Shown here: piece after piece, positions 363 to 13,502 of the stretch
Numbering within the stretch: position 1 is the stretch's first letter
Layout: every line of letters begins with the position of its first letter
From: Bryobacterales bacterium
Lineage (GTDB): Bacteria; Acidobacteriota; Terriglobia; Bryobacterales; Bryobacteraceae
Direction of reading: 5' to 3'
Length of the DNA: 64,000 nucleotides
Assembly: GCA_963793395.1 (NCBI GenBank)
Contig: CAWCAP010000009.1
Location: 128,179 to 192,178 of the forward strand
Program-made: the position numbers and the translations under genes
Notes under the pieces: generated by a model
Seen by the model: only the letters and a program-made list of their open reading frames with translations
Told to the model about the DNA's origin: nothing
The model's database searches: none

Positions 363-439
363 ACGGCGATCCCAGGAAAGAAAATCTTAACCCCCATCGT
401 AACACGGGTCCGGTCCCGCGGCGGATCGGCCAAACCCTA

Positions 440-1609
440 TCATTTATAAGCCGGGATGCCCGTGACCCGCTCCCCGATCACCAGCGCGTGTATATGATCG
501 GTGCCTTCGTAGGTCTTGACGGTTTCCAGATTACACATGTGGCGCATGATCGGATACTCGTCCATGATGCCGTTGGCGCCTAGCAGGTCGCGAGCCGCGC
601 GGGCGCAATCGAGCGCCATGGCCACGTTGTTACGCTTCAACATGGATATGTGCGCCGCATCCGTCTGCCCCCGATCCTTGAGCCGCCCGACATGCAGAGC
701 CAACAGTTGCGCCTTCGTGATTTCCGTGATCATATCGGCGAGCTTCTCCTGCACCAATTGATGCGAGGCAATGGGGCGTCCCTCGAATTGCTTGCGCAGC
801 ACGGAATAGGAGCGCGCTGTCTCATAGCAATCCATGGCGGCGCCGATCACTCCCCAGCCGATGCCGTAGCGGGCCTGCGTCAGGCACGACAGCGGAGCGC
901 GCAGTCCCTTGGCTTGCGGAAGCAACGCACTATCGGGCACGCGGCAATTATGGAACGCGAGACTCGAAGTCACCGACGCCCGCATCGACAGCTTTCCGTG
1001 TATTTCGGAGGCAGTGAACCCAGGAGTCCCGCGCTCCACCAGAAATCCACGGATGCCATCCTCGGCGCGGGCCCACACCACGGCGAAGTCCGCCACGCTG
1101 CCATTAGTGATCCAGGTTTTCTCGCCGTCGAGCACCCATTCTGAACCGTCGCGCCGTGCGGTGGTCAGCATACCCGCGGGGTTCGAACCGAATCCGGGCT
1201 CGGTAAGTCCGAAGCACCCGATAGCCTCTCCGGCTTGCAGCTTGGGGAGCCAACGCTGCTTCTGTTCGTCGCTGCCGAAGGTCAGGATCGGATACATCAC
1301 CAGCGCGCTCTGCACGCTGACAAAGCTGCGCAGGCCGGAGTCGCCGCGCTCGATCTCCTGCATCACCAGCCCGTATTCCACGTTGTTCATCCCGGCGCAG
1401 CCATAGCCGTCGAGGTTCGCGCCCAGGAAGCCCAGGCGGCCTAACTCGGGGATGAGTTCTGAAGGGAAGCGTCCCTCGCGAAAGCAATCGCGGACCAGCG
1501 GCGCGACACGCTCGTCGACGAACTGGCGCGCGGTTTGCCGCACCAGCAGTTCCTGTTCGGAGAACTGCGAGTCGATCATTAAGTAGTCAACGCCGGGGAA
1601 TCGGGGCAT
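440..1609 (-). CDS. Acyl-CoA dehydrogenase (glutaryl-CoA dehydrogenase-like)
   Basis: 389-aa ORF with typical ACAD blocks (GCFGLTEPGFGSNP, GEKTWITNG, C-terminal YEGTDHIHALVIGERVTG). Confidence 0.9.
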   Translation of the reverse strand: MPRFPGVDYLMIDSQFSEQELLVRQTARQFVDERVAPLVRDCFREGRFPSELIPELGRLGFLGANLDGYGCAGMNNVEYGLVMQEIERGDSGLRSFVSVQSALVMYPILTFGSDEQKQRWLPKLQAGEAIGCFGLTEPGFGSNPAGMLTTARRDGSEWVLDGEKTWITNGSVADFAVVWARAEDGIRGFLVERGTPGFTASEIHGKLSMRASVTSSLAFHNCRVPDSALLPQAKGLRAPLSCLTQARYGIGWGVIGAAMDCYETARSYSVLRKQFEGRPIASHQLVQEKLADMITEITKAQLLALHVGRLKDRGQTDAAHISMLKRNNVAMALDCARAARDLLGANGIMDEYPIMRHMCNLETVKTYEGTDHIHALVIGERVTGIPAYK

Positions 1610-1733
1610 GCGGGTTTATTTTAGCGCGCGGCCCGGGGCGCCGCCCATTATCGGCGCGTTTGGCGGGCGAAATTTCCGTGTAGGCGTGGTATCGTACCGG
1701 AGAGAGCAAAGCTATCTCAATAAGGAGGGAAGC

Positions 1734-2213
1734 ATGACTCGTATTCTGGCGCTGCGGCGCTTATCCCTGGCCGCACTGGTGGCCGGTTCGTTCGTATGGC
1801 TCGGTGCGGTGCAGGCCGACGTCGATCCTTCGGTCGCAAGTTTCGTGAATCTGAAAGATGTTAAGTGGAAGGAAAACGCGAGTGGCTCTGCCGCGTCATT
1901 CCTGGTTTCCGGCGATCCCACTAAAGAAGGAAGCCTGTACGTTCAACTCATGAAGTGGCATCCACACCACAACAGCACGCCGCATTTTCATCCGCACGAC
2001 CGCTTCATCACGGTTCTCTCGGGGACCTGGTGGGTAGGCACGGGCGCGAACTACGATATGAACACCACCACGCCGATGCACGCTGGCGCGGTCGTCACGC
2101 ATTATGCGAACGGCATCCACTATGATGGCGCCAAAGATGAAGAGGCGGTGCTTGAGATCGTAGGAATTGGAACCGCCGCGTCAAAACCTGCCCCCGGCTT
2201 TAAGCCGGAATAG
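1734..2213 (+). CDS. Secreted cupin-domain protein
   Basis: Internal ATG at 1734 is preceded by AAGGAGG and followed by a signal peptide (MTRILALRRLSLAALVAGSFVWLGAVQA). His-rich cupin-like core (HFHPHDRF...HYANGIHYDG). The upstream part of ORF 1608..2213 overlaps the ACAD start and is probably not translated. Confidence 0.65.
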   Translation: MTRILALRRLSLAALVAGSFVWLGAVQADVDPSVASFVNLKDVKWKENASGSAASFLVSGDPTKEGSLYVQLMKWHPHHNSTPHFHPHDRFITVLSGTWWVGTGANYDMNTTTPMHAGAVVTHYANGIHYDGAKDEEAVLEIVGIGTAASKPAPGFKPE

Positions 2214-2248
2214 TCACCAAAATTAGGGAGCGACACTCTTGCTTTTTT

Positions 2249-2272
2249 GCGGGCCGGGCGAATCCGGCCCGC
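2249..2272. terminator. Perfect 9-bp GC hairpin between convergent genes (possible terminator)
   Basis: GCGGGCCGG-gcgaat-CCGGCCCGC, with a TTTTTT run directly upstream on the + strand (an A-run downstream on the - strand). It lies between the cupin gene (+) and the YtxH gene (-). There is no canonical 3' U-tract on either strand. Confidence 0.3.
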
Positions 2273-2298
2273 ACGGGCTCTACGGACTTTCCGGGATA

Positions 2299-2583
2299 CT
2301 AAGGAGTGGTTTGCACTGCCTCCCGGTAAGTTTGAACACCGGCATCGACGGCGGCGCTCAAATTGTCCGCGTTCTGTTTGATCACTTTTTTCCCGCGATT
2401 GATTGCTTCCGACGCGGTGTCGCGCGCGTTCGCTGCCCGCGACGCCACATAATCTGTGCTCTCCCCGGCCTTCGAACGCAGGAACTTACGCGTGTCCGGT
2501 CCCGATTTCGGAGCAAGCAGCACGGCCGCCGCTGCGCCCAGTGCGGCTCCGATTCCAAAGTATACAAATTCGTTTGAGTCCAT
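2299..2583 (-). CDS. YtxH domain-containing protein
   Basis: Start at the internal ATG (MDSNEFVYFGIGAALGAAAAVLLAPKSGPDTRKFL...). It has a YtxH-type N-terminal glycine-zipper helix followed by APxSGxxTR. Confidence 0.7.
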   Translation of the reverse strand: MDSNEFVYFGIGAALGAAAAVLLAPKSGPDTRKFLRSKAGESTDYVASRAANARDTASEAINRGKKVIKQNADNLSAAVDAGVQTYREAVQTTP

Positions 2584-3034
2584 AGTTATTTTTACTCCTC
2601 CGCGTTGATGCTGCACTTCGCAGGCCATCGTGTCCGGATGGCGCTGGCAGCCCGAACTCGGCCGAATGGTACTAAAACTGCATCGGCGTAGAGTAAGCCC
2701 GGTGTAGGCGAGCGTAGCCGCTTTCCATTAGGTTGAAGGGAGAAGTCACATGCTAGGTTACGGATTAGCTGGACCCGTTATTGTCATTATGTTGGTGGTG
2801 TGGTTCGTGCACGGTTTGTAGGCTACTGACTTTCCATGTGAGTCATGATATTGGCTCTCTGTGGATTCCTGCTGGCGGGGAGCGCAGGCGCATTCTTGTT
2901 CTACGTTTCCACCTTGTCGAAACAGCGGCGGCGTGTCGTCGCGACGGTCCATAGTCATTTGACCGGCAGCGGTCAAAACTCGCTGAGGATAGACCGGGAC
3001 TGATCAAGCCAAAGTTTTTTGCGAAGATTGAAGC

Positions 3035-3862
3035 TTGATCCTCAGACGGGTTCGGGACGCCATCTTCGGAGTTGCCGTGGCGGCGATAGCGCTGACACTT
3101 TGCCCCACGCCGGCGGGAGCGCAGTCCTCCGCCTACCAAATCCTGCGAACTAAGGATGGCAAGCCGGATCTGAGCGGAATCTGGCAGGTGCTCAGTACCG
3201 CAAACTGGGATTTGCAAGCGCACGCGGCGCAGGCTGGACACGTGGTTGCACTCGGCGCGCAAGGGGCTGAACCGGCCGGCATCGGCGTCGTCGAAGGAGG
3301 CGAGATTCCCTATCTCCCGGCGGCGCTGGCGCAGAAAAAAACCAACTACGAAAAGCGTTTCACCGATGACCCGGAAATAAAGTGCTACATGCCGGGAGTG
3401 CCGCGCGCCACTTATCTGCCGTTTCCCTTTCAAATTTTGCAGAGCCAGAAGGTGATCCAGATCTCCTACGAATTCGCGGCCGCCGCGCGGACGATATTCA
3501 TGCAGAAAATGCCGCCCGCCCCGCTCGATTCGTGGATGGGGCAATCGGTTGGACATTGGGAGGGCGACACATTAGTAGTAGATGTAACGGGTCTGGTCGA
3601 CCAAACCTGGTTCGACCGGGCAGGGGATTTCCATAGCGATGCGCTGCACGTCGTCGAACGTTATACGCCTGTCAGCCGCGACGTGCTGAAGTACGAAGCC
3701 ACTATTGAAGATCCGAAAGTGTTTTCGCGCCCGTGGAAAATCAGCATGCCGCTTTACCGCCACGTGGAGAAAGATGCCAGGCTAATGGAATTCCGTTGCG
3801 CGCAATTTGTCGAAGAACTTTTGTACGGCCAGTACCGCAAGACGCCCGCCACGTCGAAGTAG
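3035..3862 (+). CDS. Secreted protein of unknown function, paralogue A1 of a 5-member family in this window
   Basis: TTG start and a signal peptide ending in AGAQ. Family motifs present: KDGKPDLSGIWQ, GHWEGDTLVVDVT, FHSDALHVVERYT, EDPKVFSRPW. Confidence 0.75.
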   Translation: MILRRVRDAIFGVAVAAIALTLCPTPAGAQSSAYQILRTKDGKPDLSGIWQVLSTANWDLQAHAAQAGHVVALGAQGAEPAGIGVVEGGEIPYLPAALAQKKTNYEKRFTDDPEIKCYMPGVPRATYLPFPFQILQSQKVIQISYEFAAAARTIFMQKMPPAPLDSWMGQSVGHWEGDTLVVDVTGLVDQTWFDRAGDFHSDALHVVERYTPVSRDVLKYEATIEDPKVFSRPWKISMPLYRHVEKDARLMEFRCAQFVEELLYGQYRKTPATSK

Positions 3863-3881
3863 GGCGTGGCGAAGGAGTGCT

Positions 3882-4871
3882 ATGAGATTTGCGATCCTCA
3901 TCATCATCACCATCGGCGCAGCGTTCGGGCAACCTGCGGCGAAAAAGGCGTGGACTGCGCCGCGCACACCGGACGGCCAGCCGGATCTGCAAGGAATCTG
4001 GAACAGCGCCACCGGCACCCCCATCGAACGGCCCGATGAACTCAAGGGCAAGGAATTTTTCTCTCCACAAGAGGCGCGCGACTGGGAAAAAACCATGCAG
4101 GCGCGCAATCGCAAAGACGGCAAAGCGGACGACCCGGGAGTTCCCGGTACCTACAATGACGCGTTTTGGGAGATGGGGACCAAGGCTGCGAAGACCCTGC
4201 GAACTTCCATCGTGATCGATCCGCCGGATGGGAAAATGCCCGCGCTGACCCCTGCGGCGGCGGCCGTGCGGCAGCAGAAGATCGACAGGATTTTTCATCC
4301 CGATGGACCGGAGGATTTAGGCTTGGGCGATCAGTGCCTCATGTTCTCCACCGGCGCGCCGCCGATGCTGCCTTACAACTACAACAGCAACTACCGCATC
4401 GTGCAGACCAAGGATTACGTTGCGATCTACGTCGAGATGGTGCATGACACGCGCATTATTCCTGTCGTCAAGAGTATGGACGGCCGCAAGCATCTGCCTT
4501 CGAACGTGCGCCTCTGGTACGGCGATTCTATCGGCCATTGGGAAGGCGACACGCTGGTGGTCGACACCACCAACTTCATTCCCAAGAGTCAGTTTTATTT
4601 TCAGCTTCCTTATCAAGTCACCACCGGACCCATGGCTGACGAGAATATGCACGTCGTCGAGCGCTTCCGTAGGTTGGACGCCGATACCATCCTCTATCAA
4701 TTCGATGTGGATGATCCGACCGTCTTTGTGAGGCCGTGGAAAGGCGAGTACACAATGTCGGCCGCGCCCGGGCCTATCTATGAATACGCGTGCCACGAGG
4801 GCAATTACGGTTTGCCGGATGTACTCAAGGGCGCGCGTGCCCAGGAGAAAGCCGCTGCGGCCGCCAAATAG
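3882..4871 (+). CDS. Secreted protein of unknown function, paralogue B1 of the same family
   Basis: ATG at 3882 after GAAGGAG. Signal peptide MRFAILIIITIGAAFGQ. Motifs PDGQPDLQGIWN, GHWEGDTLVVDTT, MHVVERF, DDPTVFVRPW, YACHEGN. Confidence 0.75.
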   Translation: MRFAILIIITIGAAFGQPAAKKAWTAPRTPDGQPDLQGIWNSATGTPIERPDELKGKEFFSPQEARDWEKTMQARNRKDGKADDPGVPGTYNDAFWEMGTKAAKTLRTSIVIDPPDGKMPALTPAAAAVRQQKIDRIFHPDGPEDLGLGDQCLMFSTGAPPMLPYNYNSNYRIVQTKDYVAIYVEMVHDTRIIPVVKSMDGRKHLPSNVRLWYGDSIGHWEGDTLVVDTTNFIPKSQFYFQLPYQVTTGPMADENMHVVERFRRLDADTILYQFDVDDPTVFVRPWKGEYTMSAAPGPIYEYACHEGNYGLPDVLKGARAQEKAAAAAK

Positions 4872-4892
4872 AACGCTTAGTTTTTAGGCGCT

Positions 4893-5633
4893 TTAATCCG
4901 GCCTTCCCACAGAGCTCTTGTTATTCTCCTCGCAGGAGAACTCCATGATTTCCCAATCCGGACGCAGCGTGAACATGCGGGTATTTTTCCACGGCCTGGT
5001 ATAAGTCTTGGGATCGTCAACCGTGATCTCGAGAGCCATGTGCCCCAGATCCTTGCGCGTCCAGCGCTGCGTGACATGCAACTGGTCGCTGTGCGGATGG
5101 CCGGCCGAATCCGCCTTGGTCTTGCCATTGAAATTCACGGTATCGATCACCAGCGTGTCGCCTTCCCAATGCCCCACGGAGTCGCCCGCCCAAGTAGCAA
5201 TCTGCTTGCGATGCGGACGGCCGTCGATGGGCACCACCTGAAACCAGTTGTCGGTTTCAAAATCGAAAGAGACGTATTTATTGTTCTGCACCAGTTGAAT
5301 CGGAAACGGTGCGCTGATGGAACGGAGCAGGCCATGGGGCAGGCAAGCTCCCGTCGCATCGCCATCTTCGGCGTTATAGTTTTTCCACTCGGCGAGTCCC
5401 CAGGCAGTGAACGGCAATTCCCCGGCGCCGACTTGATCGCGGCCGCTCTTGGACATGTCACCGACGAATGGATGGTCCCACACGCCGCTGAGGTCGGGCT
5501 TGCCGTCGGCCATGCGCGGCACCGGACCCTCGGGAGGTTTGAATCCGTCGCTCTGCGCGAACGCCGGAAGCGCCATCAGCGCCAGCAGCGCGGTTGAAAG
5601 AAAGACAGATCGCGAGCCCATGGAGAACCTCAC
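4893..5633 (-). CDS. Secreted protein of unknown function, paralogue C of the same family
   Basis: Signal peptide ...ALPAFAQ. Motifs ADGKPDLSGVWD, GHWEGDTLVIDTV, HSDQLHVTQRW, DDPKTYTRPW. Its start overlaps the stop of the upstream small gene. Confidence 0.75.
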   Translation of the reverse strand: MRFSMGSRSVFLSTALLALMALPAFAQSDGFKPPEGPVPRMADGKPDLSGVWDHPFVGDMSKSGRDQVGAGELPFTAWGLAEWKNYNAEDGDATGACLPHGLLRSISAPFPIQLVQNNKYVSFDFETDNWFQVVPIDGRPHRKQIATWAGDSVGHWEGDTLVIDTVNFNGKTKADSAGHPHSDQLHVTQRWTRKDLGHMALEITVDDPKTYTRPWKNTRMFTLRPDWEIMEFSCEENNKSSVGRPD

Positions 5634-6016
5634 TTGTACTCGTTATTGGACGAGCCTGCGAAGACGCTCTTGCCGTCGGGCATCTTCACGGAACGCGTGT
5701 TGCAGGTCTTCGAGCCGTCCTTCGCGAGCCAGCCATCCAGCGATACCTGGTCACCGGGCTTGAGCGAATCTTTGCTCCAGCCGGCCCGCGTGAGCGTGTT
5801 GGGGGCGCCGCCTTCGCACTGCCACTTCACAACGTTGCCGGCTTCGTCCTTCACATCCAAATACATCCAGATATGAGGGTTGGTCCATTCAACCTTGGTG
5901 ATGGTGCCGTCGAGCTTGACGGGTTTCTTGCCATCGAACTCCGCCGCGAAGGAGTGATGCGCCAGCGCCGGGATAGCCGCCACACACGCCACGGCCGCAA
6001 GCATCGCAATCTTCAT
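5630..6016 (-). CDS. Small secreted DUF6152-like protein (mature N-terminus His-His)
   Basis: ATG at 6014-6016. MKIAMLAAVACVAAIPALA|HHSFAAEFDGKKPVKLDGTITKVEWTNPHIWMYLDV... It is a paralogue of 8416..8805. The family name comes from my recollection of DUF6152 sequences (AHHSF..FD...V.L.G.V..W.NPH). Confidence 0.7.
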   Translation of the reverse strand: MKIAMLAAVACVAAIPALAHHSFAAEFDGKKPVKLDGTITKVEWTNPHIWMYLDVKDEAGNVVKWQCEGGAPNTLTRAGWSKDSLKPGDQVSLDGWLAKDGSKTCNTRSVKMPDGKSVFAGSSNNEYK

Positions 6017-6173
6017 TTCCCTGAACCTCCACCGGAACGACGTTATCAACATAAACGTTAGCAACCGTGGCCGCTAGAGTCCAGCCCCGTGGAGCGCGGC
6101 CCGGATGTAGAATAAACCTGATACAGGGCACGCGTTTTGTGTTCTGGCCAGGTAGCTTCCATTAGGAGGGACC

Positions 6174-8414
6174 ATGCTGAAGCACTATTCCGCGAGCATC
6201 GTTCTTGGAGCGTGCGCGTTCGCGGCGACCGCTGCCGCCGAGACAGATTCAAAAGTCGATTTCGGCCGCGACGTGCTGCCCTTGATCCGGCAAAATTGCA
6301 TCGCCTGTCACGGACCCAACGTGCAGATGAACAACTTCCGGCTGGATCGCCGCAGTACCGCGATGCGGGGAGGCACGCGCTCGGTGATCGTGCCGGGCAG
6401 CTCGGCATCCAGCCGCCTCTACTTGCGGCTAAGCGGCGATCAGTTTGGGAGGCAAATGCCGCCTACGGGGGCTTTGAATCCCGAACAAGTGGCCGTGTTT
6501 AAGAACTGGATCGATCAAGGGGCCGAGTGGCCTGACGCGTTGGCGAACGATGTAGATCCGCCTCCCGCCGATGCGAAAGCAGTGCGGATGGTGATGGCGC
6601 TGCGATCCGGCGACGCCGCAACTTTCAATAAATTTGTTGCGGAAGATCCGAAGTCTCTTAACCTGCGCGGCCCCAACGGCTCGACCCCTTTCATGTTTGC
6701 GGCGCTCTATTCCGATGCTGCAACTGTTCGCGAGCTACTCGACAAAGGAGCCGACCCGAATCAGCGCAATGACGCGAACGCGACTGCTCTCATGTGGGCG
6801 GCGAACGATCTTGAAAAGACGCGGGTGCTGGTGGCGCATGGCGCTCAAGTGAACGCGCGCTCAAACGACGGGCGATCGGCGCTGGCCATCGCGGCGACTA
6901 AGGCCGGGGCTGCGCCCATCGTGAAGTTTCTGCTGGAGCACGGCGCAAATCCCGATCCGGCTGGTCCGACGGATACCGCCGCGCTTCATCAAGCCGCCGC
7001 GGCTGGGGACGCCGAAGTCATGCAACTGTTGATCGACCACGGCGCGCATCCTAAAGCCGCTGGCGAAGACACGTTGGCCGCCGCGATCGAAAACGATTGC
7101 AAGAAGTGCATTGAACTCGTTGAAAAGAGCTTCGATGCGAAGGCGTACAGCACTGCGCTGGTCGATCTCTCGATTCACAGCGAGCGCTATGACGGGATCA
7201 AATTTGCAGTGGAGCATGGCGCGAATGTGAAAGCGGCCGATGTCGAGGGCCGCACGCCGCTGCTGTTCGCGGCCAATTCCGACTTGCTTCCTTTGAATAC
7301 CGTCAAATTGCTGATCGATCATGGAGCCGACGTCAATGCCAAAAACATCTACGGCAACACGCCGCTGTATTTGGCCAAACTGCACGGCGATACGCCGATT
7401 GTCGATCTGTTACTCAAATCCGGCGCCAAGCCGGAGCCCATCGCCGACCCGGCCCTAAAGTTTCAAAAGGCGAACACCATTCAGAGCGCCGTTGAGCGAG
7501 CCATCCCGCGCTTGCAACGCGCCGACATCAGCTTTTTGCAGCAGTCAGGCTGTGTCTCCTGCCATAACGAAGCCTTGACCGACATGACGCTTTCGACAGT
7601 CCGCAGCGCCGGATTCAAAGTCGACGAGCCGATGGCGGCGAAGGAAGTCAGCGGCGTGGCACAGTTCTTCGAGCTATGGCGCGACCGTCTGTACCAGGGC
7701 AATGCTCCGGGAGGCGTTGCATATTCGTTGGTTGGATTGCACGCCGAGCACTACCCGGCAGATCTCGTTACCGACGCGGTCGCTCGCTACATCGCGGTGA
7801 AGCAATTTCCCGACGGCCATTGGGGATACGGTTGCGGCGGCTCGCGGGCTCCGCTGTGTGGCGCGGAAATCTCGAACACGGCACTATCGATGCATGCCTT
7901 GCAATTTTACGCGCCCGTCACCGGCCGCGCCGAATACGACAAAGTCATTCAGATGGCCGGAGCATGGCTGGTCGAGGCGCCTTCGAAAACTAACGAAGAT
8001 CGGACCTATAAAGTTTTCGGTCTGGCTTGGGCCAAGGCGGACAAACGCGCTCTTCAGCAGGCGATGAAGGAATTGCTGGCCACGCAGCGGGCCGACGGCG
8101 GATGGTCCGATATCGCCAGCATGAATAGCACGGCTTACGCGACCGGCGAGGCTATGGTGGCGCTGCACGAAGCGGGCTTGCCGGTGTCAGATTCCGCGTA
8201 TCAGCGCGGAGTGAAGTATCTGCTGTCAACGCAGCTCGAAGACGGCTCGTGGTACATCAAGACGCATTCGCAGGCAGTGCAGCCGTACTTCGACGTGGGC
8301 TTCCCGCACGGGTTCGATCAATGGATTTCGGCGTGCGGCACTAACTGGGCCACGATGGCTCTGGCGCTGGCCGCGCCCGAGACGCATGCGGTTACCGCGC
8401 AGGTGGTGCGCTGA
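6174..8414 (+). CDS. Multidomain secreted protein: PSCyt1-type cytochrome c domain, ankyrin repeats, second CXXCH, terpenoid-cyclase/prenyltransferase-like repeats
   Basis: GGAGGG lies before the ATG, and a signal peptide is present. CIACH at 6297-6311 sits in a Planctomycete-cytochrome-C-like context (VLPLIRQNCIACHGP...PP). There are at least 6 ankyrin-like repeats (e.g. GRTPLLFAA...LLIDHGADVNAKN). CVSCH is at 7551-7565. The C-terminus has QxxDGGW/DGSW repeats (LATQRADGGWSD, LSTQLEDGSWY). Confidence 0.85.
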   Translation: MLKHYSASIVLGACAFAATAAAETDSKVDFGRDVLPLIRQNCIACHGPNVQMNNFRLDRRSTAMRGGTRSVIVPGSSASSRLYLRLSGDQFGRQMPPTGALNPEQVAVFKNWIDQGAEWPDALANDVDPPPADAKAVRMVMALRSGDAATFNKFVAEDPKSLNLRGPNGSTPFMFAALYSDAATVRELLDKGADPNQRNDANATALMWAANDLEKTRVLVAHGAQVNARSNDGRSALAIAATKAGAAPIVKFLLEHGANPDPAGPTDTAALHQAAAAGDAEVMQLLIDHGAHPKAAGEDTLAAAIENDCKKCIELVEKSFDAKAYSTALVDLSIHSERYDGIKFAVEHGANVKAADVEGRTPLLFAANSDLLPLNTVKLLIDHGADVNAKNIYGNTPLYLAKLHGDTPIVDLLLKSGAKPEPIADPALKFQKANTIQSAVERAIPRLQRADISFLQQSGCVSCHNEALTDMTLSTVRSAGFKVDEPMAAKEVSGVAQFFELWRDRLYQGNAPGGVAYSLVGLHAEHYPADLVTDAVARYIAVKQFPDGHWGYGCGGSRAPLCGAEISNTALSMHALQFYAPVTGRAEYDKVIQMAGAWLVEAPSKTNEDRTYKVFGLAWAKADKRALQQAMKELLATQRADGGWSDIASMNSTAYATGEAMVALHEAGLPVSDSAYQRGVKYLLSTQLEDGSWYIKTHSQAVQPYFDVGFPHGFDQWISACGTNWATMALALAAPETHAVTAQVVR

Positions 8415-8415
8415 T

Positions 8416-8805
8416 ATGAAGCGCCTGTTAAGCGTCGGGTTGGTGCTGTGTGCATTGCCGGCCTTCGGCCATCACTCGTTCTCCGCCGAATACGATATCG
8501 ACAAACCGGTCACCATCAAAGGAACGCTGACGAAACTCGATTGGGTGAATCCGCACGGCTGGATTTACATCGACGTGAAGGGCGAGGATGGCAAAGTCAC
8601 CAACTGGGCCGTTGAATTCGGCGCGCCCAACGCTTTGCTTCGGCGCGGCTTGCGCAAGACGGATTTCCCGGTCGGCGTAGAGGTGACGGTGAAGGGATAC
8701 CGCGCCAAGAGTGGAGGCCAAAACGTGAATGGCACCAGCGTCACACTCCCAGATGGGCGCAATCTCTACACGGGGTCGTCGGCGAATGGTCTGCCGACGG
8801 AGTAA
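8416..8805 (+). CDS. Small secreted DUF6152-like protein (mature N-terminus His-His)
   Basis: ATG at 8416, one nt after the stop of the 746-aa gene. MKRLLSVGLVLCALPAFG|HHSFSAEYDIDKPVTIKGTLTKLDWVNPHGWIYIDV... Confidence 0.75.
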   Translation: MKRLLSVGLVLCALPAFGHHSFSAEYDIDKPVTIKGTLTKLDWVNPHGWIYIDVKGEDGKVTNWAVEFGAPNALLRRGLRKTDFPVGVEVTVKGYRAKSGGQNVNGTSVTLPDGRNLYTGSSANGLPTE

Positions 8806-8812
8806 AGCGGCA

Positions 8813-9550
8813 GTGAGAAAGTTGCCGTATTATTTCGGGTTGGTATTGTTCACGTGCGGCGTCGTGTGTGGGCAAGGGGCGATTCCCCGAACCGCCGAGG
8901 GCCATCCGGATCTATCGGGCATCTGGCAGGTCATGAATACCGCGGAGTGGGACATCCAAGCTCATCACGCGAGACCGGACGCTCCCGCGGGTCTGGGCGT
9001 TGTCGAAGGCGATGAGATCCCGTATCAAGCATGGGCGGCGGCGAAGAAGAAAGAGAATTTCGAAAAGCGCGCGACCGCCGATCCGCTAGCCAAATGCTAC
9101 CTGCCCGGAGTGCCGCGACTCACTTATACCCCGCTGCCGTTTCAGATTTTTCAGACGCCCAAGCAAGTCACCATCTTCTATCAGTACGCGCATGCAGTGC
9201 GGCACATCTTCGCGAACGGAAGCAAGCATCCGGACGGCCACATCGACTGGTGGTTAGGGGATTCGCGCGCGCAGTGGCAGGGAGATACCTTGATCGTGGA
9301 CGTGACCGACTTCAACGATCTGACCTGGTTCGACCGGGCGGGGAACTTCCACAGCGATGAGTTGCATGTGGTGGAACGCTATACGCCGTCGGATGCGGAT
9401 CACATCAACTACGAAGTCAGCATTGAGGACCCGAAAGTGTTCATGCGGCCGTGGAAGATGAACATGATCCTCTACCGTCACAAGGAAAAGAATTTCCAAT
9501 TGCTGGAGCATGAATGCTACGGCTTCGACTATGAGCAGTATTATCCGTGA
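8813..9550 (+). CDS. Secreted protein of unknown function, paralogue A2
   Basis: GTG at 8813 gives VRKLPYYFGLVLFTCGVVCGQ. Motifs AEGHPDLSGIWQ, AQWQGDTLIVDVT, FHSDELHVVERYT, EDPKVFMRPW. It is the closest relative of 3035..3862. Confidence 0.75.
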   Translation: MRKLPYYFGLVLFTCGVVCGQGAIPRTAEGHPDLSGIWQVMNTAEWDIQAHHARPDAPAGLGVVEGDEIPYQAWAAAKKKENFEKRATADPLAKCYLPGVPRLTYTPLPFQIFQTPKQVTIFYQYAHAVRHIFANGSKHPDGHIDWWLGDSRAQWQGDTLIVDVTDFNDLTWFDRAGNFHSDELHVVERYTPSDADHINYEVSIEDPKVFMRPWKMNMILYRHKEKNFQLLEHECYGFDYEQYYP

Positions 9551-9561
9551 CTGAGGCCAGC

Positions 9562-10461
9562 ATGAATCCACGATCTCTCCTTGCGACAGTTTTGGCCGGT
9601 GCGTTTGCCGTGGCGGCGGTGGTAGTAGCGGCACGGGCGCAGAACGCGGCAGTGGACAAGACCCTCTCCGCGGAGTCGAAGACTACGGGCCCGTGGGTTC
9701 CAGCACGATTGCCCGATGGACAGCCGGATGTGCAAGGTTTCTGGTCCGCGGAAGTAAGCGGAACGTATTCGCTGTTGAATCCGCGAAAGGGCGGAACGCG
9801 CCTCAAAGAGCAGTTGCTAGAGAAGGCGGGGAAGAAGGCGCCGACCAACCCAACGCGCATCGTCGATCCGCCGGATGGGCAAGTTCCGTATCAGCCTTGG
9901 GCGCGTGCCAAGCAGCAAGAGATTCAAGCCAACATCGATCAACCAACGGCGCAGAGGCATATCGATCCACAGGCGCGCTGCCTGCCCAACGGGCCGCTGC
10001 GATCGCCGCTATGGTCGACTTACGAGATCATGCAATCCCCCGGATACCTGGTGTTCTCCTACGAGACCACGCACATGTATCGCATCGTCGCGCTGGATGG
10101 GCGGCCGCACCCGAGCCAGAATGTGAAGCTGTGGATGGGCGATTCGAAAGGGCATTGGGAAGGCAACACACTCGTCGTCGACGTCATGAACAACAATATG
10201 AAGTCGCGCTTTTCTACTGAAGGCGATTTCGCGAGCGACAAGGGGCACATCGTCGAGCGCTACACTTTCCTGGATGCGAAGACCATGGAGTATCGCGCCA
10301 CCATCGAAGATCCCAGCGTGTATACGCGTCCGTGGACCGTTGAAGCGCGGATGATTCGCATCCACACCAAAGACCCGGATTACGAAGTATGGGAAGACGC
10401 CTGCCACGAAGGCGAGAAGAACGCCGACGGGTTGATTCAGGCGGCGCCTGACAAGAAGTAG
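9562..10461 (+). CDS. Secreted protein of unknown function, paralogue B2
   Basis: ATG at 9562 (alternative GTG at 9547). The signal peptide ends in ARAQ. Motifs PDGQPDVQGFWS, GHWEGNTLVVDVM, GHIVERYT, EDPSVYTRPW, DACHEGE. Confidence 0.75.
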   Translation: MNPRSLLATVLAGAFAVAAVVVAARAQNAAVDKTLSAESKTTGPWVPARLPDGQPDVQGFWSAEVSGTYSLLNPRKGGTRLKEQLLEKAGKKAPTNPTRIVDPPDGQVPYQPWARAKQQEIQANIDQPTAQRHIDPQARCLPNGPLRSPLWSTYEIMQSPGYLVFSYETTHMYRIVALDGRPHPSQNVKLWMGDSKGHWEGNTLVVDVMNNNMKSRFSTEGDFASDKGHIVERYTFLDAKTMEYRATIEDPSVYTRPWTVEARMIRIHTKDPDYEVWEDACHEGEKNADGLIQAAPDKK

Positions 10462-10468
10462 GGTCCTC

Positions 10469-11293
10469 TTAATCGAGCTGGGCTTCCTTTAGCCAGGCGA
10501 CCAGAGCGCCGGTCCAGGCCGCGGAGGTCTTACCGGACTTCTGAATTCCGAATCCGTGGCCGCCGGAGGAATAAATGTGCAGCTCCGCGGGGATCTTGGC
10601 GGCGCGCAACGCGGCGAAGAAGCGTCCCGCATTCTCGGCAGGATTAACAGTCGTATCGTCATCGGCCGCCACGATAAACGTGCGCGGCATCGCCGACGTG
10701 ACGCTTAGCGACGCCGGGATCGCCGGGTAACCCAGCACCAGGAAATCCGGACGGCTATCGGCAGGCGCGATCATTCCCATCATCGCCGCCAGATGTCCGC
10801 CAGCCGAGAATCCCATCATGCCGATGGCTCCGGGCTTCAGGTTCCACTTGGCTGCGTTTTCGTGCATGATGCGCATCGCCGATTCGGCGTCTTCGAGTGC
10901 CACGTGAATCCGGTCCGCGACCTCGTGGATATCGCCCTGCGCGCTACCGCGCATGCTGCCCGGCAACCGGTACTTCAGCACCACTGCCGCGATGCCAATC
11001 GTGTTCAGCCAGCGTGCGATATCGTGGCCCTCTTTGTCGATGGCCAGGTGCTGATACCCGCCGCCGGGGCAGATCACGACGCCGGTTCCGTTGGCTTTTT
11101 CCTTGGCAGGCAAATACACGGTAATGGTTGGCTGATTGACGTTGCTAATTCCACGGTCGATAACGCCGCCTTTGCCGCGTTCCTCGATCTTCTCCGCGGG
11201 AGCGGACGGGTCGACAGGGTTCTTCAGAGGCAGCGAAATAACCTCTTGCGCCAACAGGGGCAGGGTGAGGAACAACAGGGGCCACAGTTTCAT
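10469..11293 (-). CDS. Secreted alpha/beta hydrolase (esterase/lipase-like)
   Basis: Signal peptide, nucleophile elbow GFSAGGH, C-terminal GGHGF. Confidence 0.85.
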   Translation of the reverse strand: MKLWPLLFLTLPLLAQEVISLPLKNPVDPSAPAEKIEERGKGGVIDRGISNVNQPTITVYLPAKEKANGTGVVICPGGGYQHLAIDKEGHDIARWLNTIGIAAVVLKYRLPGSMRGSAQGDIHEVADRIHVALEDAESAMRIMHENAAKWNLKPGAIGMMGFSAGGHLAAMMGMIAPADSRPDFLVLGYPAIPASLSVTSAMPRTFIVAADDDTTVNPAENAGRFFAALRAAKIPAELHIYSSGGHGFGIQKSGKTSAAWTGALVAWLKEAQLD

Positions 11294-11336
11294 GTGAACC
11301 AGGATACTGCCAATTGCAAGTCTCGTGTGGCGCGGG

Positions 11337-12040
11337 TTAGAAATGCCGCGAGGACAGCGTGAGATCCGACAGCGCGGCGACGCGCACCGGATCGTTCACG
11401 TAGAGGGCGGCGGCGTATTCGGTGCCTATGGACAGGCCCAGGTGGCGGGCGGCGGAGAGGCGGAGGTCTATGTAGCCGCGCGTTTGCAATTGGCCGGCGT
11501 GGCATTGCATGGTGGATTCCCATTCTTTTATCACTTCGGTTATGTCTATTACTATGTCGGGGGGGCCGAATTCTTTGGTAATTGTGTAGTAATAGAGCGC
11601 CGTTATTGTGTGTGGGGCGGTGCCTTTTAGGGAAAAGCCTCTTAGGAATTCTAATCCGCCGTAGCGGGCGAAGCGGGAGGCGTCGCGGACCAGGTGGCCT
11701 ACTACGGCGTGGTCGGGGTGTTGGTTTTCTGCGGTGTGGGGGGCTAGGACGATTGCGGCTGGAATTTGCGGATTTCGTAGGCTAGTTTGAAGGCGTTTTC
11801 GGGGGCGCGGAGGAAGTGGCAGTCGCCTCCGAAGTCCAGGAAATCGATTTCGGCTCCGATTAGTTTGGCGGCGGCGCGGGCTTCGGATTCGCGGGAGTCG
11901 GGGGTGCCGTTGGTGCCGGCTTCGCCTCTCGAGAGAACCAGAAGTTTGACGTTGTTGCCTTTGCGGACTTCCTGAATCAGGACGTGGGCGCAGCCGAACT
12001 CGATGTCATCGGGGTGGGCGCCTACTGCAAGGATGTTCAT
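11337..12040 (-). CDS. PIG-L/LmbE family N-acetylglucosaminyl deacetylase (BshB-like), interrupted by one apparent frameshift near 11750-11760
   Basis: N-terminus [17 protein letters not shown] (PIG-L motif) in ORF 11744..12040. By my translation the remainder continues in another frame (IVLAPHTAENQHPDHAVVG...ITEVIKEWESTMQCHAGQ...), ending at 11337. Confidence 0.75.
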
Positions 12041-13502
12041 GATTTACCAACTTGTCGGCTAGCTGGGTGAAGGTGCGGACGCAGACTCCGGTGGGGCCTT
12101 TGGCTAAGTTGGGCGCGGACTCGTCGAGCCAGCCGGTGCCGGCGATATCGAGGTGAACCCACGGAGTGTCTTCGGCGAATTCGCGGAGGAACCAGGCGGC
12201 GGTGATGGCTCCGCCCCAACGGGGGCCGATGTTGGCGAGATCGGCGAAGGCGCTTTTGAGGAGCTCGCGGTAATCGTCATCGAGGGGCATGTGCCACATG
12301 TTTTCGCCTTCTTCTTTGGCGGCGGCCAGGACGCGGGCTAGCATGGCTTCGTTGTTGGTGAAGGCTCCGGTGTGGACGTGGCCTAGGGCGACGACGATGG
12401 CTCCGGTTAGCGTGGCGGCGTCGACCAGATGGGTGCAGCCGAGTCGCTTGGCGTAGGTGATGGCGTCGTTCAGGATGAGGCGGCCTTCGGCGTCGGTGTT
12501 CAGCACTTCGATGGTTTTGCCGGAGAGCGATTTGACGATGTCGCCGGGGCGCTGGGCGCGGCCGCTCACCATGTTCTCGACTGAGGGGACGAAGGCGGTA
12601 ACCGGGATGGCGGGTTTTAGTTGCGCGATGGCGCGCATGGCTCCGAGGACGGCGGCGGCGCCGCACATGTCGTACTTCATTTTCTCCATGTCTTGCGCGG
12701 GCTTGATGGAGATGCCGCCGCTGTCGAAGGTTACGCCTTTGCCGATCAGGGCGAGGTGATCGGCTGGATTTCGAGGGCGTGGCGGGGACGTATTTGAGGA
12801 CGATCAATACGGGCGGCTCGTCGCTGCCTTGCGCGACGCCCAGCAGCGAGCCCATGCCTAATTGCTTCATGCGATCGCGGTCCAGGACTTCGATGTCGAG
12901 GCCGAAGTCGTGGGCGATTTGTTCGGCTTGCTTGGCGATGACGGTGGGGGTCATCAGGTTGGCGGGTTGGTTGCCGAGGTCGCGGGCGAAGTTTTGCGAT
13001 TCGGCTAGGATTACGCCGCGTGCGAGGGCTGCTTCGAGGGCGGCGGGATTGCGCGGGGGCTACCAGCGGAGAAGGACTCGAGGGGCTTGGCGTCGCTCGA
13101 GGGCTTGTTCATGTCGGGTTCGTAGTTGCCTAGGATGGCGCCTTCGACGGCGGCTTCGGCGGTGACAGCGTCGCGTCGCCGGATAGCATCCAGGCCAGTT
13201 TCTTTACGCCTTTTTGTTTGACGGCGCGGACTACGGAGCCGACGGCTTTGCGCAGGGACCGCGGCATTGAACTTTTCTTTTTTGCCTCCGCCGACGGCGA
13301 TCAGGCGTTTGGCTTTCAGGCCTTGCGGCTGGTGCAGCGTGGCGGTCTCGCCGGGCTTCCCGCTGAATTCGCCGGAGGTGCGCATTTCGTCCAGCCAGGT
13401 TTTGACGTGCGGCGACTCGCTGTCGCCATCTTCGAACAGCACGACGGCTACGGCATCGGCTTCCACTTCATTCAAGGGTTGATAGATGAGCTTGGTTTCC
13501 AT
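12006..13502 (-). CDS. pepA: Leucyl aminopeptidase (M17), interrupted by at least 4 apparent frameshifts
   Basis: The C-terminal fragment 12006..12689 carries the M17 catalytic blocks ([12 protein letters not shown] just upstream in frame, [13 protein letters not shown]). N-terminal fragments ([10 protein letters not shown]..., [43 protein letters not shown]) lie in other frames. Shifts are near 13255, 13170, 13050 and 12775. Confidence 0.85.

What the first reader, a model, noticed from the sequence alone, without database searches (positions are those of the whole stretch)
3035..10461. Eight-gene cluster of uncharacterised secreted proteins: five paralogues of one unnamed family, two DUF6152-like proteins and a cytochrome c/ankyrin/cyclase-like fusion
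Five proteins with signal peptides share three collinear motifs that I can read directly. The genes are 3035-3862, 3882-4871, 4893-5633 (minus strand), 8813-9550 and 9562-10461.
- Motif 1, right after the signal peptide: DG(K/Q/H)PD(L/V)(S/Q)G(I/V/F)W. The five versions are KDGKPDLSGIWQ, PDGQPDLQGIWN, ADGKPDLSGVWD, AEGHPDLSGIWQ and PDGQPDVQGFWS.
- Motif 2: G(H/Q)W(E/Q)G(D/N)TL(V/I)(V/I)D(V/T). The five versions are GHWEGDTLVVDVT, GHWEGDTLVVDTT, GHWEGDTLVIDTV, AQWQGDTLIVDVT and GHWEGNTLVVDVM.
- Motif 3: H(V/I)(V/T)(E/Q)R(Y/F/W), followed about 20 aa later by (E/D)DP.(V/T)(F/Y).RPW.
- Two Cys positions are conserved. One is in the C(Y/L)(M/L/P).G.(P/L)R block, with B1 carrying its Cys in a divergent context. 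The other is near the C-terminus (RCAQF, ECYGF, ACHEGN, ACHEGE, SCEENN). This is compatible with a disulfide.

The gene order is modular.
- A-type then B-type occurs twice in tandem, at 3035 then 3882 and at 8813 then 9562.
- A small DUF6152-like gene immediately precedes a large paralogue twice. On the minus strand 6016-5630 precedes 5633-4893 with overlapping stop and start. On the plus strand 8416-8805 precedes 8813.
- The genes from 6174 to 10461 are separated by only 1, 7 and 11 nt, so they look like one operon. That operon is divergent from the 6016-4893 pair.

I do not recognise a characterised family or function for the large paralogues. The combination with a haem protein suggests a periplasmic or extracellular redox or metal-handling system. 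That is speculation.
Basis: partly seen in the sequence, partly recalled or inferred. Interest (0 to 1): 0.8.

Follow-up and report, generated by a model that had tools for sequence, protein, structure and literature searches.

The report
Unnamed periplasmic barrel plus His-His OB-fold module
This soil-bacterium locus carries three copies of a very widespread but unstudied pair of secreted proteins: a fatty-acid-binding-protein-like barrel, and a small protein whose mature end is always His-His, which hints at an unrecognised metal or redox system that could be tested in cultured bacteria.

Summary
All eight ORFs, the three motifs and the two conserved Cys are at the stated coordinates. The five large proteins are true paralogues (all pairs give a BLASTP E <= 1e-21).

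- **Large family:** It matches no Pfam, NCBIfam or PDB sequence, yet it fills about 22,500 clusters at 50% identity. Its AlphaFold model (pLDDT 89) is a barrel resembling fatty-acid-binding proteins (FABPs), with no close solved homologue.
- **DUF6152:** It is an OB-fold whose mature N-terminus is His-His in about 97% of members.
- **Conserved unit:** The unit is barrel(s) plus DUF6152, not the eight genes.
  - DUF6152 lies next to a barrel gene in 60 of 80 genome loci and 62 of 80 metagenome contigs.
  - A-B fusions, DUF6152-barrel fusions and one cytochrome c-barrel fusion exist.
  - Elsewhere, pairs of DUF6644 membrane proteins are often attached.
- **Haem protein:** The dihaem/ankyrin/toroid protein is a widespread Acidobacteriota family. 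It sits beside the module only in near relatives (>= 87% identity).

My best guess, at low confidence, is a periplasmic redox complex. The His-His end would hold a metal, the barrel would bind a substrate, and cytochromes would carry electrons.

Function is unproven. Cultured sphingomonads carry the module and could be used to test it.

The parts
3035..3862 (+). A1: A-type member of the unnamed barrel family (275 aa, Sec signal peptide)
   Evidence: ORF. No Pfam or NCBIfam hit. 57% identical to A2. It matches the N-terminal half of A-B fusion proteins best.
3882..4871 (+). B1: B-type member of the barrel family (329 aa), 19 nt after A1
   Evidence: It matches the C-terminal half of A-B fusion proteins best.
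4893..5633 (-). C: single-type barrel protein (246 aa), translationally coupled to D1
   Evidence: The DUF6152-then-barrel pair recurs in 62 of 80 metagenome contigs.
5630..6016 (-). D1: DUF6152 OB-fold protein (128 aa). Its stop overlaps the start of C by 4 nt.
   Evidence: PF19649, 114.7 bits. Model pLDDT 83 with an OB-fold.
5954..5959 (-). His20-His21 codons of D1, the predicted first two residues of the mature protein (ALA|HHSF)
   Evidence: HH follows an A/G at position -1 in 119 of 120 close homologues, and is present in 88 of 91 diverse ones.
6017..6173 (.). Divergent intergenic region between D1-C and the fusion operon. It presumably holds promoters.
   Evidence: Inferred from gene layout only. 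The consensus scan found nothing above chance and Rfam found nothing.
6174..8414 (+). Dihaem c-type cytochrome / ankyrin-repeat / alpha-alpha-toroid protein (746 aa), first gene of the operon
   Evidence: PSCyt1 at 46.6 bits, Ank_2 at 150.7 bits and SQHop_cyclase_C at 34.1 bits. It belongs to a full-length family in Acidobacteriota.
6297..6311 (+). First haem c attachment motif, CIACH (residue 42)
7551..7565 (+). Second haem c attachment motif, CVSCH (residue 460)
   Evidence: All 114 full-length homologues have two CxxCH motifs.
8416..8805 (+). D2: DUF6152 OB-fold protein (129 aa), 1 nt after the fusion gene
   Evidence: PF19649, 111.5 bits. 46% identical to D1.
8470..8475 (+). His19-His20 codons of D2, the predicted mature N-terminus (AFG|HHSF)
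8813..9550 (+). A2: A-type barrel protein (245 aa), 7 nt after D2. This is the protein that was modelled.
   Evidence: Model pLDDT 89.4, pTM 0.84. Best PDB matches are FABP/CRABP at E about 1e-3. The exact sequence is in NCBI/ENA on a 195-kb contig.
9562..10461 (+). B2: B-type barrel protein (299 aa), 11 nt after A2

Best explanation
**What it is (shown).** The locus holds three ancient paralogous copies of a two-family periplasmic module: A1-B1, D1-C and D2-A2-B2.
- One partner is a roughly 220-residue beta-barrel protein of an unnamed family, with subtypes A, B and C.
  - Its predicted topology is strand A, then a helical insert, then eight more strands, as in fatty-acid-binding proteins (FABPs).
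  - It has a G-x-W motif on strand A, one disulfide, and an invariant set of Glu, Arg, Tyr and Asp residues.
- The other partner is the small OB-fold protein DUF6152. Signal-peptide cleavage should leave His-His as its first two residues.

**How it most likely works (inferred).**
- The barrel(s) and DUF6152 form one complex. A and B would act as a heterodimer.
- The free amino terminus, His1 and His2 of DUF6152, together with its invariant 'NPH' histidine, would hold a metal ion, most likely copper in a histidine-brace-like site.
- This metal site would act on an organic substrate held in the barrel.
- Electrons would come from or go to c-type cytochromes. In this lineage that partner would be the dihaem/ankyrin/toroid protein co-transcribed with D2-A2-B2. 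In many other lineages it would be a pair of DUF6644 four-helix membrane proteins.

The stated confidence is for this whole mechanism. The module-and-complex part alone I put at about 0.85.
For: **Module and complex.**
- DUF6152 lies on the same strand within 300 nt of a barrel gene in 60 of 80 genome loci picked by the barrel family.
- A barrel gene is present in 62 of 80 metagenome contigs picked by DUF6152, and in 26 of 29 contigs with at least 900 nt on both sides.
- The top 120 homologues are all A-B fusions of about 520 aa.
- Six DUF6152-barrel fusions exist, and DUF6152 is always at the N-terminus directly behind an AxA|HH cleavage site.
- The module is present in cultured sphingomonads.

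**Folds.** The barrel model has pLDDT 89 and its best PDB hits are all FABP/CRABP. The DUF6152 model has pLDDT 83 and an OB-fold.

**Metal site.**
- HH is present in 119 of 120 close and 88 of 91 diverse DUF6152 proteins. Its median position is 22, and position -1 is always A or G.
- An N-terminal His exposed by signal-peptide cleavage plus a second His is what defines the copper histidine brace (PMC10952591).

**Redox link.**
- A cytochrome c domain is fused to an A-type barrel inside a canonical A-B-DUF6152 module, next to a PQQ dehydrogenase and a cytochrome c. Its cluster has seven members, all 330 aa, several on contigs of hundreds of kb or more.
- ORFs with CxxCH make up 29 of 408 within 2.5 kb of modules and 9 of 312 beyond 4 kb (odds ratio 2.6, p = 0.012).
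- Recurrent neighbours include haem-containing DBH-like monooxygenases, CytoC_RC-type haem proteins and PQQ dehydrogenases.
- Here the gaps are 1, 7 and 11 nt.

**Enzyme-like rather than carrier-like.**
- About 30 positions, including E124, R130, E156, E188, R189, Y200, D206, E232 and E237, are at least 75% conserved across 318 diverse domains and all subtypes.
- The family is highly paralogous, with up to 10 barrel genes in 20 kb.
Against: - No metal, cofactor or activity has been measured.
- No complex model was run. The DUF6152 N-terminal segment is modelled with pLDDT below 50, so the geometry of a brace is untested.
- The barrel has no conserved His or Met.
- No known histidine-brace family has an OB-fold.
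- No classical copper-homeostasis gene appears among the 25 most frequent immediate-neighbour families.
- The cytochrome link is statistical and partial: 21 of 79 loci. It rests on crude ORF calls and a bare CxxCH motif, and some of those ORFs are clearly not cytochromes.
- The cytochrome/ankyrin/toroid gene is linked only in near relatives.
- The FABP-like assignment rests on weak Foldseek scores: E about 1e-3, TM 0.35 by query length and 0.55-0.6 by target length.
Confidence: 0.33

Rival explanations
1. Periplasmic carrier system for nutrients imported by TonB-dependent transporters. The FABP-like barrels would bind small, perhaps anionic or hydrophobic, organic molecules. DUF6152 would be an OB-fold co-receptor. 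The DUF6644 membrane pair would be the inner-membrane permease. No redox chemistry would be involved.
For: - The best fold matches are lipid and retinoid carriers.
- TonB-dependent transporters lie in 16 of 80 loci and directly beside the module in Croceibacterium and Sphingobium.
- DUF6644 pairs abut the module in 15 genome loci and in the sphingomonad loci L170 and L172-L175.
- Neighbours are varied hydrolases and catabolic enzymes, with TetR or MarR regulators.
- High paralogy fits many ligands.
Against: - It does not explain the invariant His-His at the mature N-terminus.
- It does not explain the cytochrome c fusion or the CxxCH enrichment.
- Carrier families usually vary in the pocket, whereas about 30 positions, many of them charged, are conserved across all subtypes.
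- The window itself has no DUF6644 gene and no TonB-dependent transporter within about 10 kb of the cluster.
Confidence: 0.25
2. Periplasmic metal acquisition or trafficking, analogous to CopC-CopD / YcnI-YcnJ. A copper or similar ion would bind the N-terminal His of DUF6152 and be passed to a CopD-like membrane protein (DUF6644) or to nearby metalloenzymes. The barrels would be accessory.
For: - N-terminal His proteins such as CopC and YcnI act in copper transport (PMC10952591; PMC12154828).
- DUF6644 gives weak sub-threshold hits to DUF2214, UPF0093/HemJ and SirB (E 0.004-0.007). From memory, these belong to Pfam's CopD-like clan.
- DBH-like copper monooxygenase genes lie in 8 loci.
- TonB-dependent transporters lie nearby.
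Against: - Up to ten barrel and six DUF6152 genes in 20 kb is not typical of metal homeostasis.
- Adjacent regulators are TetR and MarR, not metal sensors.
- No CopA, CopC, CusF, Sco or PCuAC gene is among the 25 most frequent immediate neighbours.
- The barrel, which is the most conserved and most abundant part, has no role in this scheme and no conserved His or Met.
- DUF6152 shows no homology to CusF: hhalign probability 0.5%.
Confidence: 0.15
3. One reading: all eight genes form one integrated system, with the cytochrome/ankyrin/toroid protein as a core component.
For: - The spacing of 1, 7 and 11 nt implies co-transcription with D2-A2-B2.
- The eight-gene layout is kept in L001, L003, L085 and L090.
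Against: - Homologues of the fusion at 82, 70, 64, 63, 58 and 54% identity have no barrel or DUF6152 gene within 6-7 kb.
- None of the 77 more distant barrel-selected genome loci carries an orthologue of the full fusion. Only isolated PSCyt1-like or ankyrin hits occur in nine of them.
Confidence: 0.1
4. Non-catalytic envelope proteins, for example a stress sensor or structural pair like NlpE, which combines a lipocalin-like domain with an OB-fold domain.
For: The combination of a calycin-like barrel with an OB-fold resembles the two-domain architecture of NlpE. This is from my own knowledge and I could not confirm it in the library.
Against: - There is no Pfam NlpE hit.
- None of the window proteins has a canonical lipobox (direct reading of the signal peptides).
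- High paralogy and catabolic neighbourhoods do not fit a sensor.
- It does not explain the His-His end.
Confidence: 0.05

Closest known systems
Copper histidine-brace proteins (LPMOs AA9-AA17, CopC, PmoB, X325/Bim1, YcnI)
   Same: They are secreted proteins in which signal-peptide cleavage exposes an N-terminal His, and a further conserved His is available (PMC10952591). DUF6152 has His-His at the predicted cleavage site in about 97% of members, plus an invariant NPH histidine. LPMOs are likewise reduced by cytochrome domains and PQQ dehydrogenases (own knowledge).
   Different: DUF6152 is an OB-fold, not a beta-sandwich. It has no sequence similarity to those families. It carries a second His at position 2 and has an obligatory barrel partner. 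Metal binding is untested.
Calycins: intracellular lipid-binding proteins (FABP, CRABP, CRBP) and lipocalins
   Same: The predicted order is strand A, helical insert, then eight more antiparallel strands. There is a G-x-W motif on strand A. The top 50 PDB matches are all FABP, CRABP, CRBP, myelin P2 or SAHS.
   Different: The match is weak (E about 1e-3, rmsd about 7 A). The protein is almost twice as long. It is secreted and has a conserved disulfide and conserved Glu/Arg residues. No Pfam lipocalin or FABP model hits.
CusF, the periplasmic OB-fold copper/silver chaperone
   Same: It is a small periplasmic OB-fold with histidines near the mature N-terminus (own knowledge).
   Different: CusF was not among the top 50 fold matches. 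The CusF metal site uses Met and Trp residues that DUF6152 lacks.
CopC-CopD / YcnI-YcnJ copper uptake
   Same: A periplasmic N-terminal-His protein is encoded beside a multi-helix membrane protein. DUF6644 gives weak hits to families I recall as CopD-like (PMC12154828).
   Different: The hits are below threshold. DUF6644 is absent from this window. The barrel family has no counterpart in that system. Paralogy is far higher.
PSCyt1-domain 'Planctomycete cytochrome c' proteins and squalene-hopene-cyclase-like toroid repeats (for the fusion gene)
   Same: PSCyt1 is matched at 46.6 bits. There are two CxxCH motifs and three QxxxGxW repeats. SQHop_cyclase_C is matched at 34.1 bits.
   Different: It is not a cyclase. 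The hopene-cyclase equivalog model scores 29 bits against a cut-off of 431, and there is no DxDD motif. The dihaem + ankyrin + toroid architecture is a distinct family that is uncharacterised as far as my searches show.

Membership tests
Pfam DUF6152 (PF19649) | HMM score above the gathering cut-off (27 bits) | tested here: met
   D1 scores 114.7 bits and D2 scores 111.5 bits.
Copper histidine-brace proteins | His is the first residue of the mature protein after signal-peptide cleavage | tested here: met
   AxA|HH in 119 of 120 close and 88 of 91 diverse DUF6152 proteins. Position -1 is always A or G. The cleavage site is predicted from sequence, not measured.
Copper histidine-brace proteins | A second His positioned to complete the T-shaped N3 site | tested here: inconclusive
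   His2 and the invariant NPH histidine are candidates. The N-terminal segment is modelled at pLDDT below 50, and I had no access to coordinates.
Copper histidine-brace proteins | Binds copper | not testable with these tools
   This needs metal analysis or EPR on protein with a native N-terminus.
Copper histidine-brace proteins | Homology or shared fold with a known brace family (LPMO, CopC, YcnI) | tested here: not met
   The fold is an OB-fold. Pfam gives only DUF6152 at E <= 0.1.
Calycin superfamily (FABP / lipocalin) | Antiparallel beta-barrel with FABP strand order (strand A, helices, then the remaining strands) | tested here: inconclusive
   The model (pLDDT 89) has this order. Foldseek's top 50 hits are all FABP-like, but at E about 1e-3 and a target-normalised TM of 0.55-0.6.
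Calycin superfamily (FABP / lipocalin) | G-x-W on the first strand packing against a basic residue of the last strand | tested here: inconclusive
   G36 is 99% and W38 is 91% conserved, and both lie on strand A. 'RPW' starts the last strand in all five window proteins, but the Arg falls below the 75% conservation cut-off family-wide. Packing was not examined.
Calycin superfamily (FABP / lipocalin) | Match to a Pfam lipocalin or FABP model | tested here: not met
   No such hit for the five window proteins or for 139 diverse members.
c-type cytochrome (fusion gene) | CxxCH haem attachment motif and a cytochrome c domain model | tested here: met
   PSCyt1 scores 46.6 bits against a cut-off of 22. 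CxxCH occurs at residues 42 and 460, and both motifs are present in all 114 homologues.
Squalene-hopene cyclase (fusion gene C-terminus) | Equivalog HMM score and the catalytic DxDD motif | tested here: not met
   TIGR01507 scores 29.3 bits against a cut-off of 431. There is no DxDD motif. Only the repeat-level Pfam model passes, at 34.1 against 26.1.
CusF family | Profile similarity to CusF | tested here: not met
   hhalign probability 0.5%, E 0.13.
CopC/CopD-type uptake system | A CopD-like membrane partner encoded with the periplasmic protein | tested here: not met
   The 64-kb window has no DUF6644 gene. Elsewhere DUF6644 is adjacent, but its similarity to DUF2214, HemJ and SirB is below threshold.

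The most novel reading that the evidence does not exclude
DUF6152 would be a new, OB-fold class of histidine-brace copper protein. Docked on an FABP-like barrel of a family missing from Pfam and NCBIfam, it would form a very widespread, previously unrecognised type of periplasmic copper oxygenase or oxidase. It would be fed by c-type cytochromes or by DUF6644 membrane proteins, and would act on small organic substrates brought in by TonB-dependent transporters.
Probability: 0.15. Interest if true: 0.9.

Novelty: categorically new. Interest (0 to 1): 0.62.

Why it matters
**Size of the gap.** The barrel family fills about 22,500 clusters at 50% identity. It is found in Acidobacteriota, Gammaproteobacteria, Alphaproteobacteria and Gemmatimonadota from soils, sediments and oceans. 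It has no Pfam or NCBIfam model, no solved relative and no name. I found no papers on its partner families DUF6152 and DUF6644; the barrel family has no name to search on.

**Why it stands out among unknown families.** The module has an invariant His-His at a processed N-terminus. It also shows three kinds of gene fusion that tie its parts to each other and to a cytochrome.

**If the metal-enzyme reading is right.** It would add a new fold and a two-protein design to histidine-brace chemistry. It would also help explain how abundant soil bacteria process imported substrates.

**If it is a carrier system.** It would supply a candidate for the periplasmic and inner-membrane steps that follow TonB-dependent import in these phyla.

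**Testability.** Either way it can be tested now, because cultured Novosphingobium humi, Croceibacterium atlanticum and Sphingobium strains carry the module on plasmids.

Tried and rejected
- **Family searches for the barrel.**
  - Pfam and NCBIfam scans of the five large proteins found nothing. The only Pfam blip was Dioxygenase_C at E 0.013, below its cut-off.
  - A Pfam scan of 139 diverse members found no family covering the domain.
- **PDB sequence searches.** A single sequence and profiles of 5 and 139 sequences gave nothing meaningful. The same was true for DUF6152.
- **RNA and signals.** Rfam on 1-12000 gave no hits. The promoter and terminator scan gave counts at or below shuffled expectation.
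- **Literature.** Searches for DUF6152, DUF6644, PF19649, 'histidine brace + OB-fold', 'PSCyt1 + ankyrin' and 'NlpE + lipocalin + OB-fold' found no papers.
- **Rejected memberships.**
  - CusF homology was rejected.
  - Terpene-cyclase function of the fusion was rejected.
- **The fusion gene as a conserved partner.** This was rejected after six look-ups.
- **DUF6644 in the window.** It is absent.
- **Immediate neighbours of the module.** In 139 cases no single partner beyond DUF6152 and DUF6644 emerged.
- **Artefacts set aside.**
  - Two neighbour 'clusters' (unk190 and c10) were probably antisense ORFs over DUF6644 genes, since their coordinates overlap DUF6644 genes on the opposite strand.
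  - P0374, an apparent barrel-then-DUF6152 fusion, lacks the DUF6152 N-terminus and looks like a chimeric gene call.
- **Extra N-terminal domains in some family members.** These gave no Pfam hit.
- **Flanking genes in the window.** They are housekeeping genes and give no clue.

Full report
**1.

The ORF list shows all eight genes at the stated coordinates and strands.

| Gene | Coordinates | Strand |
|---|---|---|
| A1 | 3035-3862 | + |
| B1 | 3882-4871 | + |
| C | 4893-5633 | - |
| D1 | 5630-6016 | - |
| fusion | 6174-8414 | + |
| D2 | 8416-8805 | + |
| A2 | 8813-9550 | + |
| B2 | 9562-10461 | + |

- The quoted motifs read exactly as written. The five-way alignment has 31 invariant columns, including both cysteines.
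- Every pair of large proteins gives a BLASTP hit of E <= 1e-21. D1 and D2 are 46% identical.
- The gaps of 1, 7 and 11 nt and the 4-nt D1/C overlap are correct.
- All eight proteins start with a Sec-type signal peptide. I read this from the sequences; no predictor was run.
- The nearest genome match is a Bryobacterales (Acidobacteriota) metagenome-assembled genome (MAG), L003, at 92% identity.

**2. What the parts are**

*The large barrel proteins.*
- They match no Pfam or NCBIfam model. They match no PDB sequence, even with profiles.
- A scan of 139 diverse members found no Pfam family covering the domain.
- Public sources call them 'hypothetical protein'.
- The family is very large. A profile search of 1.84 billion representatives gave 22,490 clusters at E <= 1e-3 and 12,147 at E <= 1e-10.
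- The AlphaFold2 model of A2 is confident, with pLDDT 89.4 and pTM 0.84.
- The model runs in this order:
  - strand A, carrying the 'SGIW' motif;
  - a helical insert at residues 73-105;
  - eight more strands, the last of which begins at 'RPW'.
- The best PDB fold matches are all FABP, CRABP, CRBP or SAHS proteins. They are weak: E about 1e-3 and a target-normalised TM of 0.55-0.6. I therefore call the fold FABP-like, with no close solved relative.
- Across 318 diverse domains about 30 positions are at least 75% conserved.
  - These include the G-x-W motif, the Cys95-Cys235 pair, E124, R130, E156, E188, R189, Y200, D206, E232 and E237.
  - No His or Met is conserved.

*The small proteins D1 and D2.*
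- They are true DUF6152 members.
- The D1 model (pLDDT 83) is an OB-fold. Its best matches are the OB domains of lysyl-tRNA synthetase, TiaS and SSB.
- The main new observation concerns the mature N-terminus. The signal peptide ends in AxA or AxG and the next residues are His-His.
  - This holds in 119 of 120 close homologues and 88 of 91 diverse ones.
  - The consensus HH(A/S)F(A/S)AE(F/Y)D follows, and an invariant 'W.NPH' lies further on.

*The fusion protein.*
- It combines a signal peptide, PSCyt1, ankyrin repeats, a second CxxCH motif and a toroid domain with three QxxxGxW repeats.
- It is not a terpene cyclase.
- It belongs to a full-length family of about 750 aa in Acidobacteriota, annotated only as 'ankyrin repeat protein'. 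All 114 full-length members have two CxxCH motifs.

**3. What is conserved elsewhere**

*Barrel plus DUF6152.*
- Among 80 genome loci picked with the barrel family, 60 have DUF6152 on the same strand within 300 nt. The usual order is A, B, DUF6152.
- Among 80 metagenome contigs picked with D1-like DUF6152, 62 carry a barrel gene. Of the 29 contigs with at least 900 nt on both sides, 26 do. The usual order there is DUF6152 then a single barrel gene, as for D1-C.

*Gene fusions that tie the parts together.*
- The best 120 barrel homologues are all A-B fusions. The window's A types match their N-terminal half best, and the B types match their C-terminal half best.
- Six proteins in L037 and L058 are DUF6152-barrel fusions. 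In each, DUF6152 comes first, directly behind an AxA|HH site. This is what a requirement for a free N-terminal His predicts.
- P0248 is a cytochrome c domain fused to an A-type barrel. Its cluster has seven members.
  - It sits in a canonical A-B-DUF6152 module.
  - That module lies next to a PQQ dehydrogenase, a small cytochrome c and a CMD/AhpD-like gene.

*A third family.*
- Pairs of DUF6644 genes, which encode small hydrophobic proteins I read as four-helix membrane proteins, abut the module in 15 genome loci. They also abut it in the sphingomonad loci L170 and L172-L175.
- DUF6644 is absent from this window.
- It gives only sub-threshold hits to DUF2214, UPF0093/HemJ and SirB.

*Other neighbours.*
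- They are varied: TonB-dependent transporters, PQQ dehydrogenases, haem-containing DBH-like monooxygenases, CytoC_RC-type haem proteins, amidohydrolases, esterases and peroxiredoxins.
- ORFs with a CxxCH motif are enriched near modules: 29 of 408 against 9 of 312, odds ratio 2.6, p = 0.012. This excludes the window's close relatives. It rests on crude ORF calls, and some of these ORFs are not cytochromes.

*The fusion gene.*
- It is next to the module only in relatives at >= 87% identity: L001, L003 and L083-L090.
- Homologues at 82, 70, 64, 63, 58 and 54% identity have no barrel or DUF6152 gene nearby.

**4. Anatomy of this locus**

- The locus holds three modules: A1-B1, D1-C and D2-A2-B2.
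- The paralogues are old. A1/A2 are 57% identical, D1/D2 46% and B1/B2 34%. This is therefore maintained diversity, not a recent duplication.
- The dihaem gene heads the D2-A2-B2 operon, so co-transcription in this lineage is likely (inference from spacing).
- The flanks are housekeeping genes: acyl-CoA dehydrogenase, YtxH, an esterase, PIG-L, PepA and SmpB.

**5. Mechanism**

Shown:
- The two families are genomically coupled and are sometimes fused.
- Both are exported.
- The predicted folds are an FABP-like barrel and an OB-fold.
- The predicted mature N-terminus of DUF6152 is His-His.

Inferred:
- The two proteins form a complex.
- The N-terminal amine, His1, His2 and the NPH histidine bind a metal. 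An N-terminal His unmasked by signal-peptide cleavage plus a second His is the defining feature of the copper histidine brace (PMC10952591).
- The conserved polar residues of the barrel suggest a shared chemistry or a shared interface, not a variable ligand pocket.
- High paralogy and catabolic neighbourhoods suggest many organic substrates.
- The cytochrome fusion, the CxxCH enrichment and this lineage's operon suggest electron transfer.

I put the full redox-metalloenzyme model at about 0.33 and the module-as-complex part at about 0.85. The rivals are:

| Rival | Confidence |
|---|---|
| Carrier or uptake system behind TonB-dependent transporters | 0.25 |
| CopC/CopD-like metal trafficking | 0.15 |
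| The eight genes as one integrated system | 0.10 |
| NlpE-like envelope pair | 0.05 |

**6. Comparison with known systems**

- DUF6152 meets the sequence-level criterion of a histidine brace. It is not a member of any known brace family, because the fold is an OB-fold and there is no homology.
- It is not a CusF relative.
- The barrel resembles FABPs in topology but fails every sequence model.
- I therefore do not file the module under any known system.

**7. Novelty and verdict**

- I found no paper that mentions DUF6152, DUF6644 or PF19649.
- The module is real, very widespread and uncharacterised as far as my searches reach. It can be tested in cultured sphingomonads.
- Its function is not established.
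- Interest is 0.62. It is not higher because uncharacterised conserved families are common and the mechanism is inferred. It is not lower because of the family's size, the His-His signature and the fusion evidence.

Noticed in passing
window 11340-14000: The genes just downstream of the cluster look broken. PIG-L is split across two reading frames near 11756. PepA is fragmented: the 12006-12689 ORF holds only the last two thirds of the Peptidase_M17 catalytic domain. SmpB and the PepA N-terminal domain lie in one ORF (13011-14000). The 12-14 kb bin also has an extreme AT skew of -0.286. These look like indel errors or pseudogenes. The eight cluster genes are intact.
   Followed up: partly
P0001-P0120 (public proteins, about 520 aa): In many organisms the A-type and B-type barrel genes are fused into one protein. 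Each half keeps its own 'PRTxDGKPDLxG' start.
   Followed up: yes
L037:1337-2476 and five ORFs in L058 (e.g. 2553-3587, 4091-5125): These are natural DUF6152-barrel fusion proteins. L058 holds five of them within 20 kb, alongside further barrel and DUF6152 genes.
   Followed up: yes
L170:5110-6085; L173:10436-11496; L174:13592-14624; 15 genome loci: Tandem pairs of DUF6644 genes, read as four-helix membrane proteins, abut the module in Acidobacteriota and sphingomonads. Their first helix carries a conserved 'P(V/I)IE..H' motif. They give weak hits to DUF2214, HemJ and SirB. They are absent from the window.
   Followed up: partly
P0303, P0352, P0371, P0277: Some family members carry an extra N-terminal domain of about 130-240 residues beginning 'PDFSGTW'. 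It looks like another small barrel and has no Pfam match.
   Followed up: no
window 6174-8414; L163-L168: The dihaem/ankyrin/toroid protein is a widespread family of about 750 aa in Acidobacteriota, with no known function that I could find. In L163 it sits next to Fur and a catalase-peroxidase. In L168 it lies near a PQQ dehydrogenase.
   Followed up: partly
L173 (Sphingobium sp. TomTYG65 plasmid, 291765-308370): Here the module lies inside what looks like an organosulfur-scavenging cluster. That cluster has two luciferase-like monooxygenases, a peroxiredoxin, TauD, a sulfonate-binding protein and two TonB-dependent transporters.
   Followed up: partly
L169:8515-10596 and L174:11878-13431: An Abhydrolase_10 hydrolase lies close to the module in two unrelated lineages. 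It is directly downstream of DUF6152 in L169 and between two modules in L174.
   Followed up: no
L055, L064, L042: MAG records labelled Klebsiella (L055, L064) and Rugosimonospora (L042) carry barrel-family genes. L042 also carries a TonB-dependent transporter. The labels look like binning or classification errors.
   Followed up: no
L003 (closest genome relative): Several genes of the same cluster are split into two ORFs in L003: a barrel gene, a DUF6152 gene and the fusion gene. This suggests frameshift errors in that assembly.
   Followed up: no
window 1608-2213: A roughly 160-residue secreted protein lies upstream of the cluster, with a weak, below-threshold Cupin_2 match and several His residues. 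No link to the module was seen in other loci.
   Followed up: no
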